Shown here: positions 43,906 to 48,400 of the stretch, one piece after another
Layout of the letters: each line of letters starts with the position of its first letter
Position numbering within the stretch: the first letter of the stretch is position 1
DNA from: Leucoraja ocellata
Lineage: Eukaryota
Direction: 5' to 3'
Length of the DNA: 64,000 nucleotides
Assembly (NCBI GenBank): GCA_036785375.1
Contig: JAWMAR010000053.1
Location: 6,448,001 to 6,512,000, forward strand
Notes under the pieces: model-generated
Databases searched by the model: none
What the model was told of the DNA's origin: nothing
Seen by the model: the letters and a program-made list of their open reading frames with translations, nothing else
Program-made: the position numbers and the translations under genes

Positions 43906-44138
43906 TCACAATAAAGGATTGCCAGTAAAAAAGTGCAGGCGGTCTCTGCTAAGTTTCTTCTCCTTCATTCTACGATTCTGGAACCATATTTTGACTTGTC
44001 GGTCGGAGAGGTTCAACATCCTCGACAATTGCAAGCGTTTTTCTTTGTTGATGTAGACATTGAAGAAAAATTCTCGCTCAAGTTCCCGGATCTGATATTT
44101 GGTATAGGGACATCTTTTCTTCCTGGATCGCAGAGCAG
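43906..44138 (-). CDS. HOXD11: HoxD11 exon 2 (homeodomain); not in the ORF track in the correct frame
   Basis: [76 protein letters not shown]. Acceptor cacCAG at 44139-44141; stop TGA at 43906-43908. Confidence 0.95.
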
Positions 44139-44678: not shown

Positions 44679-45336
44679 TGGATACGCTGTCTTTGTCCGC
44701 CACACTGTTACCGGAGGATTCGCCGGTGTTCTTTTCGGTTGCACTTTCTTTCGTCTGATCCACAGAAACTTTATCAGACGTTGTAACACTCTGGCACGTA
44801 GACACGGACTTTTCGGTCAAATGTTCATAATTAGAAGTGTCGGGAATCCCATAGGCTGTCTCAAAAAACTGATCAAAACCTTGCGGGAGTATTCCATTCC
44901 TGCCAACTGTGGTGTAGAAATTGCAAGATGGATTTGAGCTTGCACGCTGACTGTATAGATTATCATTTTTAAACAACATTCCCGTCCTGGCCGGTGGCTG
45001 AATATAGTCTCTGTGCATGATCTCTTCTGCAGGGCAATAAGGAGTATAGTTGCCCCTGTAATGCCACTTGGTCGGAAGTTCTAACCCGTAGTCTCTGAAC
45101 GATACTTCGCGAACAGGTTGGACCTGAGCTAAATTAGAGGAGTAAGGAAATGTCATTTGGCAAGAAGTCGTCTGCGGTAAGAACGTTGACACTGTCGAGA
45201 AATCTTGGCCTGAAACATAGTAGGTGCAGCTGGGTAGATACATGCTGGAGTTGCAGCTACCACGCTCTTCAAACTCAGTCATGTTTTGTTTTCGTGGTTT
45301 CGAGAACAAATTATCAGGATTGATGGCGTTAAGCAT
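44679..45336 (-). CDS. HOXD11: HoxD11 exon 1 (first in-frame ATG 45336; conventional ATG 45282)
   Basis: MYLPSCTYYVS, CQMTFPYSSNLAQVQPVREVSFRDYGLE and VGRNGILPQGFDQFFE. Donor A|GTAGGT at 44678, with an alternative G|GTAACC at 44666. Confidence 0.92.
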
Positions 45337-45399
45337 GCTCCATCTATTCTACTCTAAAGGCGTATGAACGGGTCGGCGAAAGAAAAAAAAAAGATTGGG

Positions 45400-45465
45400 A
45401 ACGTAAGCTGACGTGCAATTCATCTTGATTGATTCTGAGGGTAAACGAGTCATGTGATCCAATGT
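45400..45465 (-). promoter_or_regulatory. HoxD11 proximal promoter
   Basis: tgacgtg 45409-45415, Pbx-type tgattgat 45426-45433, gtcatgtga 45449-45457 and ccaat 45459-45463. Confidence 0.65.
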
Positions 45466-48400
45466 AGAAATTACCATATATCAGTTTTGGTCATTAAGAT
45501 CCATCCTTGGGAACCGGTAGATAATTCGAAATTAGCCTATTGCCTTTCAGTAGTTACATGTTAGCTGCGTTTTTTCCCCATGATCGAGGAGTGAGGAAAA
45601 AACAAACTCTACAATAAATAATGAAGTGTCCGTATCGTAGTCTGTCATATTTGCATTTGGACTTTTGAAAGCATCAAAACCATCAACTGGGGTTCATTAG
45701 CTGGTGAATTCATATTCATAATAACGCGAGACTATTCTATCAGAACGAATATAAATTATTATATTTTACATTTCGGAATAATTTGTTGTTGGCAAATGCA
45801 AATGTTACTTGCAGACTAAACTACGTCATGGTTAAATTATGTATTTATAAATTCTATGAATACAATTTTCAAAATATGTATCATACAGAAACGTGTGGAA
45901 ATGCCAATGATAGTAAAGGATAATGAAATTATTTTGAAATGGCTAGTTTTTAATTATTTTGCTTCTGCTTCAGTATATTAAATAAATTAGGAATGTGCTA
46001 TTGACAGGAATATGCAATTACCTATCTAGCTTTACTACTTTAAATGATAGTGTATAATTTACATTTTGTAAGCCGACTGTCCAGGATGTGTGAATTTAAT
46101 ATTATATTTTAGCACTAACAGGATGTGTATAAATCACGGGATTTTGAAGGTTGGAGTCTCGTGAACTGCTTGAAGTCCAACCCCACAGCATCCACCACCA
46201 TAACGACTAACATCACAATATGGTCGTGCTACAAAAGTTAGAATATTGTCAGGACACGAGAGTCACTCTAGGTACGCTATTATTGCGAAGCTTCCTTTCC
46301 AATTAAAACAATGGAAATGTAATATGAAAGTCTGGAATGTTAAAAAAGATGGGAAATTGCTTTCAGTACGCTTAAGGATGAAAGACCCTGTATTGATGCG
46401 CTTTTCCGTAATTCACTCAATTCCAATAACCTGGATCTTTAAAAAAAATTGTTTGATTTGCACGAGAGCGAAATTTTGATTTGAAAAGTATTTGAATCTC
46501 CACACGTGGGCTACACTGCAGCTCTCTTAATGGAACACCAGTCAAGCGAAAATTAAACCAGAGGAAGGCTGCAAGTAACTATCAAATCTAATTTGATCTA
46601 TAGGATAAATAGCATCACACAGAGAGAGAAAAAAGTTATCCGGTGCAGAAGTAGCCGTTCGTATTAATGTTTATTTTTATGTTATTCTCCCATATTATGC
46701 ATGATCAATGGTTGACGGATTAAAATCCATAGTTGAGCACATTTACAGCTGGCGGTTTAGATCAAAATTCTGTGCCACAAATTCGAGCAATCTGAAAATG
46801 ACACCTAAATAAATCGGGAACTCTCGATTAACAAGAATATGCAAATATATATCTTATACTGACCGAACTGACACGCACTATTGTTGAGCTTTTTATTTTT
46901 GGAAACAAAATATTTTTTTTCTGAAACATATATAGATTACTAGAAACTTCTAAATACAATAATATGCGAATTTGGATTCGTTGAATCCACGGGCACATGG
47001 ATATAAAATGTACCATCCGGTTGATGTCAGCATAAGGCATGTGACACTGTACTGGTTTAATTAGTGAGATCCAGCTTCCAGTGTGCTATTTGTTTGCTGT
47101 AGATATAATAATGATACTACCAGATAAAGAAAGTGTAGTTTGCTAAAAGATCGGAATTTGATTTCACTACCCGTAATGATTAAACCCCGCATACCGAGGA
47201 GGTTAAATCAAAAATGTAAAACCTAATACAACTAAGTGATCCATCTTCTCGTTAACGGTAATAGGGTATAACAAATATACGGCAAATCACAATGAAGGAT
47301 TAAATGCAGGGTGTTCGGCAGCATGCCATGTAAATTATTAGAAATACGACACTTCTAACACAGGCACACTCACACACTACTATACAACATATGAAGGTTT
47401 TAAACGTTCCGTTGGAACCTAATATTTGCCATGTTTCATTAATATGTCTCATCCTTGCGACTACTGTTCACAGGCTCGTGACTTTCACGATTTAATCAGT
47501 TATTCTGTGGTTATAATACTTCTGCTGTTCAATGCAGCTATTTGAAAAAAAGATGAAAGTACTGGCCAAAACCTCAATGTAATTATATTAATTGATCAAA
47601 AACTCAACGGCAAAATAGCATTAGCCAACGTTGTTCAATAACATGGCAATGACTGCGAATAGAACGGGAATTACGCGTGGCCTTTGTTCCCGTCTCGTGT
47701 TCGGAGCTCACTTAATGCTTATAGTCTGCAAGAATCTAACACGCTGCAGACTGTCGATGGGGAATCAACGTTAATACCGCTTTACAAGATATGTTTTTCT
47801 TTGTAGCACAAGTTCAGATATCATTCTCTTACATACAACATTAAGCGATGCACGAATCTAGCATGTAGGGCGTTGCTTCTCTTACGCAATTCATCTAGAC
47901 CACGATCTTTGTTTTCAGTTTGACGATCCAGCAAAATATTCGCCTCGTTATATATTTTTTGTGATGCACTGCACGAAAAAATAATACTTTACAATGTGGA
48001 AAGCAACATTCATTGGTCAGGCAGAGTACACGGCCACTGAGCGGTATGTTAGACTTCTGCGGTCCAAAAAGAAGCACTAACTTGACCTTAACTTTGTTAT
48101 GGCGCCCCCGGTATCTGGAAAACATGTAGAGACACCGTCTGGCAGCTCGACCATAAAAATGAAATGAAAAAGAGATTCTGGGCGATTCGACGGAAAGTCG
48201 ACAATTTCCCAAAGCTTGGGTTAGCACTGCTGCAAATCTGATAACATTGTTGCAATGCATTTAGGTTTTCAAGCATTTTGTGTGAGTTAGGTTTATCCAA
48301 CAGATGAACATAGTTGAAATAAAGGTCTATGTTTAATGCATTGAGAAAGTATTTAGAAATTCAGCATCATTCCCCAAAACACACCAACAGTCGTTGGAAC

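What the first reader, a model, noticed from the sequence alone, without database searches (positions are those of the whole stretch)
45283..45343. HoxD11 has an upstream in-frame ATG giving a HOXC11-like N-terminus
Seen: ATG at 45336 (A at -3) opens MLNAINPDNLFSKPRKQN-MTEFEERGSC. Recalled human HOXC11 start: [28 protein letters not shown]. The two align without gaps (M.N..N..N..S..RK), while tetrapod HOXD11 and HOXA11 start at the second Met. A tiny out-of-frame uORF (ATG 45343, MEHA*) overlaps the first ATG. Inference: the ancestral group-11 gene had two start sites; C11 kept the first, tetrapod D11 the second, and this lineage keeps both, giving two isoforms by leaky scanning.
Basis: partly seen in the sequence, partly recalled or inferred. 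Interest (0 to 1): 0.7.

Follow-up and report, generated by a model that had tools for sequence, protein, structure and literature searches.

The report
Ancient extra start in skate HoxD11
The skate HoxD11 gene, like those of sharks, rays and a chimaera, keeps an old upstream start codon that adds 18 amino acids matching the front end of its sister protein HoxC11, a start that ray-finned fish have lost, which hints at how Hox genes trade start codons for regulatory mini reading frames.

Summary
Observation confirmed (minus strand). The gene is a skate HoxD11. ATG 45336 opens 18 stop-free codons before the usual Met (45282); a 4-codon uORF (45343) overlaps it. All 7 named chondrichthyan HoxD11 records retrieved, chimaera included, carry the same 18 residues. 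Database models already start there, so the ORF is not new. The stretch aligns gaplessly with 35 of 36 HoxC11 N-termini (6-9 of 18 identical; 0 of 10,000 shuffles as good). HoxC11 lacks the second Met. Ray-finned HoxD11 keeps a relic with the ATG lost and, by cross-species inference, the uORF. The first start therefore predates the C/D split. Dating it to the group-11 ancestor rests on HoxA11: the chimaera model has a 13-codon in-frame extension, apparently at the position of the known Hoxa11 uORF, but with no significant similarity. Most likely the long form dominates, and a short form arises by leaky scanning or re-initiation after the uORF. No transcript, ribosome, dN/dS or lamprey data were available, and part of the conservation is probably non-coding. 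New variant of a known kind; interest moderate.

The parts
45451..45463 (-). Reverse CCAAT (ATTGG, 45463-45459) next to an E-box-like CACATG (45456-45451): probable promoter module, 120-127 nt upstream of ATG 45336
   Evidence: The same pair lies 100-121 nt before the first in-frame ATG of D4, D9 and D10 in this window. Promoter role inferred from mouse Hoxa9/Hoxa11 (PMC9456764, passages).
45410..45415 (-). Second E-box-like hexamer; the TSS is inferred to lie between about here and 45350
   Evidence: for the motif. TSS position is inference only.
45349..45351 (-). In-frame TAG that closes the HoxD11 frame upstream; it also ends short in-frame ORFs from ATGs 45477, 45453 and 45423, probably in the promoter
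45329..45343 (-). 4-codon out-of-frame uORF (MEHA*), T at -3 and G at +4; overlaps the first ATG and ends 46 nt before the second
   Evidence: Start and TAA stop inferred to be kept in ray-finned fishes (cross-species intersection).
45283..45336 (-). First in-frame ATG (A at -3, C at +4) and 18-codon N-terminal extension homologous to the HoxC11 N-terminus
45280..45282 (-). Second in-frame ATG (A at -3, A at +4): the start used by most bony-vertebrate D11 and A11 models
   Evidence: Met19 and a purine at -3 in 7 of 7 chondrichthyans.
45241..45243 (-). Third in-frame ATG (Met32, before the YLPSCTYY motif)
   Evidence: Met32 in 7 of 7 chondrichthyan D11, 0 of 35 C11.
44679..45336 (-). HoxD11 coding exon 1, long form; includes DUF3528 (PF12045) at about 45204-44842
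   Evidence: Splice test; Pfam residues 45-165
43906..44138 (-). HoxD11 coding exon 2 with the homeodomain (about 44124-43954) and stop
   Evidence: The spliced product is 296 aa, 293 of 296 identical to Amblyraja radiata HoxD11.

Best explanation
ATG 45336 is an inherited start codon, shared with HoxC11 since before the HoxC/HoxD duplication and kept under coding constraint in cartilaginous fishes. A short capped leader from the CCAAT/E-box promoter is scanned past three starts in turn. Most ribosomes start at ATG 45336 (purine at -3) and make the 296-aa protein with the C11-type N-terminus. Those that skip it (no G at +4), or that first translate the overlapping 4-codon uORF and re-initiate 46 nt later, start at ATG 45282 and make a 278-aa form. 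The ratio would follow start-codon stringency. Shown: sequence anatomy, homology, protein-level conservation, loss in ray-finned fish. Inferred: TSS, use of each start, re-initiation, any functional difference between the forms.
For: First Met sits exactly 32 residues before YLP in 7 of 7 named chondrichthyan D11 and 35 of 36 named C11. Similarity is register-specific and above all shuffles. The extension is 72% identical on average among the seven, against 81-88% for residues 19-160 and 53-67% for the coding linker. C11 has no other Met before residue 102 in 35 of 36 models, so its homologous ATG must be transcribed and used. Its promoter block lies 43 codons upstream in 3 of 3 read-through models, against 45 in the skate. 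Where the ATG is lost the spacing drifts: 46-91 nt in 14 measured bony-fish models, against 54 in all seven chondrichthyans. Met19 and its -3 purine are kept in 7 of 7. The Hoxa11 uAUG has the same context class (A at -3, no G at +4), is translated and is leaky: removing it raises the main ORF more than 2-fold (PMC8892498) or 4.4-fold (bioRxiv 2025.07.28.667205). The leader has no unusual structure (z -0.33).
Against: No transcript-end, ribosome or protein data for any chondrichthyan. No DNA of other species, so no dN/dS. The seven records are cluster representatives whose start was probably set by automatic annotation; the 27 member sequences could not be inspected. Teleost leaders keep an FNTV.L-like relic without a start codon, and C11 and D11 share non-coding promoter sequence, so part of the conservation is not coding. 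Of the 14 spacing values, 11 could not equal 54 by how the models were ascertained, the lungfish value is 55, and 3 come from low-quality models. With A at -3 the first ATG may leave few ribosomes for the second. Met19 could be kept as an ordinary residue. uORF conservation in other chondrichthyans is untested.
Confidence: 0.5

Rival explanations
1. ATG 45336 is in practice the only start. Chondrichthyan HoxD11 simply has the C11-type N-terminus, Met19 is an internal residue, and the uORF only lowers output.
For: Purine at -3; all 7 named records use it; no direct sign of a short form.
Against: Met19 and its -3 purine are invariant in 7 of 7, while C11 has Thr, Ser, Asn, Gly or Ala there. A11 and bony D11 start at this Met, which is easiest to explain if it was already in use. 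The comparable Hoxa11 uAUG is leaky.
Confidence: 0.22
2. The ATG is not a productive start. The DNA is conserved as promoter or leader sequence, or the TSS lies downstream, and the long models are annotation artefacts.
For: The non-coding teleost relic still resembles C11 (0, 1 and 14 of 5000 shuffles as good). C11 and D11 share non-coding upstream sequence. Database models often over-extend here. One unnamed 278-aa cluster 100% identical to the skate exists (listing only).
Against: ATG, exact length and open frame in 7 of 7 across the chimaera-elasmobranch split. The distal S-x-x-R-K similarity to C11 persists in most elasmobranch records but is not evident in the teleost relics. Promoter spacing fits ATG 45336 (120-127 nt) better than 45282 (174-181 nt), against 100-121 nt in D4, D9 and D10; D12 (140-179 nt) is an exception.
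Confidence: 0.12
3. Both forms are made, but from different transcripts: a broad TSS cluster straddles ATG 45336.
For: Mouse Hoxa11 leaders range from 53 to 91 nt (PMC8892498); the first ATG is only 54 nt from the second.
Against: The promoter module lies 120-127 nt upstream; for Hoxa9 the CAAT box and E-box lie about 60 nt before the TSS (PMC9456764), which would put starts near 45400.
Confidence: 0.11
4. The extension is not ancestral to HoxD11 but was copied from HoxC11 by gene conversion in the chondrichthyan stem.
For: No named bony-vertebrate D11 model begins with the extension (0 of 29).
Against: Teleost D11 leaders keep the relic and score higher against C11 (15.7-18.7) than against chondrichthyan D11 (5.6-8.4). 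The protein body groups with D11 at 98/97 support.
Confidence: 0.05

Closest known systems
HoxC11 N-terminus (36 named bony-vertebrate records)
   Same: Met at the same distance from the YLPSC motif; M-F/L-N, N6, N9 and R15-K16 shared with most records; A at -3 (3 of 3 read-through models) and no G at +4.
   Different: C11 has no Met19 or Met32, so it has one obligatory start; 3 of 3 read-through models cannot hold the ATG at -7; its 18 residues are more conserved (95% against 72%).
Conserved Hox uORFs with suboptimal uAUG (Hoxa11 12-codon uORF; Hoxd11 uORF of tetrapods), PMC8892498
   Same: Short leader; upstream AUG with A at -3 and no G at +4; expected sensitivity to start-codon stringency.
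   Different: Here that AUG is in frame and productive, not inhibitory. The passages read list the Hoxd11 uORF only to tetrapods and do not mention sharks or Hoxc11. Its SI appendix could not be read, so which AUG starts the tetrapod Hoxd11 uORF is unknown.
Conserved alternative in-frame AUGs within the first 30 codons, PMC3025576
   Same: Two in-frame AUGs 18 codons apart, the second in good context; homeobox genes are enriched in that class.
   Different: The signal there is strongest after a first AUG lacking the -3 purine; this one has it.
C/EBPalpha and C/EBPbeta uORF-controlled isoform switch (recalled, no call)
   Same: A tiny out-of-frame uORF near the first start steers ribosomes between N-terminal isoforms of a transcription factor.
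   Different: There whole activation domains are lost and the switch is proven; here 18 residues differ and nothing is tested.
NCBI/UniRef gene models of chondrichthyan HoxD11 (296 aa)
   Same: They already start at this ATG.
   Different: They are annotations with no statement on homology, history or isoforms.

Membership tests
HoxD11 (paralog group 11, D cluster) | DUF3528 plus Abd-B-type homeodomain | tested here: met
   PF12045 at residues 45-165 of the window ORF; PF00046 in the 99% identical P0001; homeobox exon at 44138-43906
HoxD11 (paralog group 11, D cluster) | Groups with D11, not A11 or C11; lies between group 10 and group 12 genes | tested here: met
   Tree of 31 rows with extensions removed: D11 clade 98/97; gene order. 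Names of the neighbouring genes rest on recalled motifs, with Pfam support for groups 9 and 13 only.
Homolog of the HoxC11 N-terminus | Same register and above-chance similarity | tested here: met
   6-9 of 18 identities, 0 of 10,000 shuffles for each of 7 species, single register
Conserved alternative-start (dual AUG) gene | Both AUGs and the frame conserved across species | tested here: met
   7 of 7 named chondrichthyan proteins; protein level only
Conserved alternative-start (dual AUG) gene | Purifying selection on the codons of the extension | not testable with these tools
   No vertebrate DNA collection; indirect signs only
Conserved alternative-start (dual AUG) gene | First AUG in suboptimal context that allows leak | tested here: inconclusive
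   A at -3 (optimal by PMC3025576) but no G at +4 (suboptimal by PMC8892498)
Conserved alternative-start (dual AUG) gene | Both AUGs on one mRNA and both used | not testable with these tools
   No CAGE, ribosome profiling or proteomics
Conserved Hox uORF (PMC8892498 criteria) | uAUG inside a mapped leader, conserved and translated | tested here: inconclusive
   ATG 45343 and its TAA are forced by intersecting 9 of 10 frame+1 with 3 frame-0 ray-finned models, but across different species; leader and translation untested
Homolog of the Hoxa11 uORF start | Sequence similarity of an A11 extension to the D11/C11 extension | tested here: not met
   Chimaera A11 13-residue extension against 6 D11: 999 of 5000 shuffles as good; single pairs 126-1350 of 2000
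Homolog of the Hoxa11 uORF start | Positional correspondence | tested here: inconclusive
   Chimaera in-frame ATG is 39 nt before the double Met; the uORF start is inferred at 40 nt from frog and reptile models; D11 spacing is 54 nt

The most novel reading that the evidence does not exclude
One ancestral group-11 start codon met four fates: sole start in HoxC11; in-frame upstream start in chondrichthyan HoxD11 and chimaera HoxA11; start of the inhibitory uORF in bony-vertebrate HoxA11 (after a stop and a 1-nt shift) and perhaps in lobe-finned and tetrapod HoxD11; lost in ray-finned HoxD11. The well-studied Hoxa11 uORF would then be the cut-off old N-terminus of the protein, and cartilaginous fishes would preserve the state before the switch from productive to repressive initiation.
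Probability: 0.4. Interest if true: 0.7.

Novelty: new variant of a known kind. Interest (0 to 1): 0.47.

Why it matters
It fixes the true N-terminus and ancestral state of a limb and fin patterning factor. It offers a dated natural series in which one AUG moves between main start, alternative start, uORF start and loss after the genome duplications, which bears on where conserved Hox uORFs came from. Little skate and catshark are reported to lack HoxC genes (PMC3707753), so long HoxD11 may be their only protein with the C11-type N-terminus; the chimaera keeps both a HoxC cluster and the extension, so compensation is not needed to explain it. In practice, constructs started at the second Met would omit 18 conserved residues. 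The functional effect may be small.

Tried and rejected
1) Similarity of the chimaera A11 extension to D11/C11: not significant. 2) RNA structure as a cause of start choice: 45395-45230 folds no better than shuffles (67 of 200 as good). 3) Wrong paralog or whole-gene conversion: rejected by tree; a three-group unrooted tree cannot order the duplications, so the A/B versus C/D pairing comes from PMC10972751, and PMC7269912 notes that pairing was ambiguous. 4) ATGs at 45477, 45453 and 45423 as starts: blocked by the in-frame TAG at 45351. 5) N-termini of cluster members: could not be looked up, so 27 member sequences behind 7 representatives stay unchecked. 6) Lamprey, hagfish, chondrichthyan C11 and mammalian C11: none among the named hits listed (15 of 15, 120 of 410 and 120 of 167 hits); unnamed hits were not examined. 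7) Leader DNA from paper supplements: none usable; the PMC8892498 SI appendix (Tables S1-S2, Figs S3-S5) was too large to read, and the preprints' supplements were not seen; they bear directly on the Hoxd11 uORF and TSS. 8) Rows dropped: Geotrypetes C11 (one extra residue) from the gapless test; Diretmus and Lampris (no anchor motif) and Perca (no second-Met motif) from the spacing count. 9) Structure prediction, complex prediction, bacterial, phage and plasmid collections were not used; they do not bear on the question.

Full report
Verdict. The skate HoxD11 has an 18-codon in-frame extension that is homologous to the HoxC11 N-terminus and conserved in every named chondrichthyan record retrieved. 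The two-isoform mechanism and the dating to the group-11 ancestor remain inferences.

Observation. The window holds a Hox cluster on the minus strand, with eight homeobox exons. ATG 45336 (A at -3, C at +4) opens 18 stop-free codons before ATG 45282 (A at -3, A at +4); a third in-frame ATG is at 45243. ATG 45343 (T at -3, G at +4) gives MEHA*, overlapping the first ATG and ending 46 nt before the second. A TAG at 45351-45349 closes the frame upstream. Splicing 44679 to 44138 gives 296 aa, 293 identical to Amblyraja radiata HoxD11, so the source is a skate. With extensions removed, the gene falls in the D11 clade at 98/97 support (31 rows).

Conservation. Three protein searches listed 15 of 15, 120 of 410 and 120 of 167 hits; only named non-human records were used. 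All 7 named chondrichthyan D11 records (Amblyraja, Hemitrygon, Mobula, Pristiophorus, Cetorhinus, Hemiscyllium, Callorhinchus) begin with an 18-residue extension of the same length; six start MFN, the skate MLN. So the long ORF is already in database models. Mean pairwise identity is 72% in the extension, 81-88% in residues 19-160 and 53-67% in the linker. One unnamed 278-aa cluster identical to the skate was seen in the listing only. The 27 member sequences behind the 7 representatives were not inspected.

Homology to HoxC11. In 35 of 36 named C11 records the Met lies 32 residues before YLP, as in all seven D11; Geotrypetes has one extra residue and was dropped. The D11 extensions share 6-9 of 18 residues with the C11 starts. 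Each beat 10,000 of 10,000 shuffles with Met1 excluded, and only 1 of 9 registers scored high. The window's stretch was the best of 914 ATG-started stretches in the window. C11 has no Met at position 19 or 32 (0 of 35); residue 19 is mostly Thr (30 of 36), and the next Met is at residue 102 or later in 35 of 36. All C11 records were from bony vertebrates other than mammals.

Fate in bony fishes. None of 29 named bony-vertebrate D11 models begins with the extension. Some models start far upstream and so translate the leader. Three teleost models read it in the ancestral frame as W-T-K-F-N-T, with Lys where Met1 is; this relic scores higher against C11 than against chondrichthyan D11 (0, 1 and 14 of 5000 shuffles against C11; 104-271 against D11). 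Ten ray-finned models read it in the +1 frame and none can encode Met there; the lungfish Protopterus model can, but 55 nt from the second Met, out of frame. Spacing is 46-91 nt in 14 measured of 16 models, though 11 could not be 54 by ascertainment and 3 are low-quality. Intersecting the two frame sets (9 of 10 compatible) forces ATG at the uORF start, TAA at its stop and AAG at the first-ATG site. This mixes species and is inference. It suggests that the C11-like sequence was in D11 before cartilaginous and bony fishes split, and that the tiny uORF outlived the in-frame ATG. It also shows non-coding constraint on the first codons, which weakens a purely coding reading.

HoxA11. Of 39 named models, 20 start at the Met19 equivalent, 17 have an 8-9 residue extension, 1 starts at the third Met, and the chimaera has a 13-residue in-frame extension. 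That extension is not significantly like D11 or C11 (999 of 5000). Its ATG is 39 nt before the double Met. The published Hoxa11 uORF has 12 codons, a TAG stop, A at -3 and no G at +4 (PMC8892498; bioRxiv 2025.07.28.667205). In 4 of 8 distinct frog, reptile and caecilian extension types the shifted frame can hold its last three residues and stop 4 nt before the double Met, and a fifth (Ambystoma) 7 nt before; the other three cannot. This would place the uAUG at about 40 nt. The chimaera extension has Pro10 and Lys11 where the uORF has Pro10 and Arg11 (by eye). So the chimaera may read through what is a uORF in bony vertebrates. This is a lead, not a result.

Dating. HoxC and HoxD are sister clusters, apart from A and B (PMC10972751, legend passage; PMC7269912 found the pairing ambiguous). 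The first ATG is then at least as old as the C/D ancestor. Met19, shared by A11 and D11, is older still. Two starts in the C/D ancestor follows by parsimony; two starts in the group-11 ancestor needs the A11 link or a cyclostome sequence, and none was retrieved.

TSS. No transcript data. A reverse CCAAT next to an E-box lies 120-127 nt before ATG 45336; the pair lies 100-121 nt before the first in-frame ATG in D4, D9 and D10, but 140-179 nt in D12, and is not found as a pair in D5, D8 or D13. In mouse Hoxa9 this pair is about 60 nt before the TSS (PMC9456764). The block is 43 codons before the obligatory C11 start in 3 of 3 read-through models and 45 before the skate ATG. A TSS upstream of 45343 is therefore likely but inferred.

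Mechanism. Scanning of a short, unstructured leader (z -0.33) meets the weak uAUG, then ATG 45336, then ATG 45282. By analogy with the Hoxa11 uAUG, whose removal raises downstream output 2- to 4.4-fold, the first ATG would capture roughly half to three quarters of ribosomes and give the long form; leak and re-initiation after the uORF would give the short form. From recalled general rules, Met-Leu/Phe and Met-Thr starts are processed by different N-acetyltransferases, so stability is a plausible point of difference; no call tested this. I give this full model 0.5; use of the first ATG alone about 0.8.

Literature. Seen: PMC8892498 (abstract, introduction, section 6, passages, Dataset S4 and searches of S1-S4; SI appendix unreadable); bioRxiv 2025.07.28.667205, PMC8172242, PMC9456764, PMC3025576, PMC3509897, PMC10972751, PMC7269912, PMC3707753 and bioRxiv 2022.03.21.485123 (passages; two supplement searches for PMC9456764, file list only for PMC8172242). 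Searches returned no listing that describes the D11 extension, its homology to C11 or a link to the Hoxa11 uORF; most listings were not opened, and the library lacks most subscription papers, including the primary chondrichthyan Hox cluster papers.

Score. New variant of a known kind: conserved alternative starts and Hox uORFs are known, and the ORF is annotated. The paralog homology and history appear unreported in what could be searched. Interest 0.47; 0.7 if the Hoxa11 uORF proves to be the cut-off ancestral N-terminus (probability 0.4).

Noticed in passing
window 59832-59751, minus strand: The group-13 gene also has two in-frame ATGs, 27 codons apart; Pfam HoxA13_N starts at residue 26. 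Possibly a parallel retained N-terminus; resemblance to A13/C13 starts is recalled, not tested.
   Followed up: partly
window 29026-29005, minus strand: The group-9 gene has an in-frame ATG with T at -3, seven codons before the Met where Pfam Hox9_act begins, and an out-of-frame 23-codon uORF 52 nt upstream.
   Followed up: no
window 44744-44743, minus strand: An alternative GT donor would give a 274-aa protein, the same length and apparent junction as the Hemitrygon isoform X2 model.
   Followed up: partly
database models P0034, P0038, P0064, P0069, P0107, P0168, P0191, P0201 and others: Many fish D11 and some C11 models start inside the CCAAT/E-box block and add 37-82 residues in varying frames; probably annotation artefacts.
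   Followed up: partly
A11 models of amphibians, a turtle and lizards (e.g. P0141, P0151, P0202): 17 of 39 named A11 models carry an 8-9 residue in-frame extension from an ATG that would lie inside the uORF region.
   Followed up: partly
window: 100-127 nt upstream of ATGs 1248, 29026, 35537 and 45336, minus strand: A reverse CCAAT plus E-box-like pair recurs at similar spacing before D4, D9, D10 and D11.
   Followed up: partly
window 21203 and 10745, minus strand: The D8 and D5 start codons have C at -3 and A at +4; Hoxd8 is among the conserved poor-context starts in PMC8892498, so that feature appears to reach the skate.
   Followed up: no
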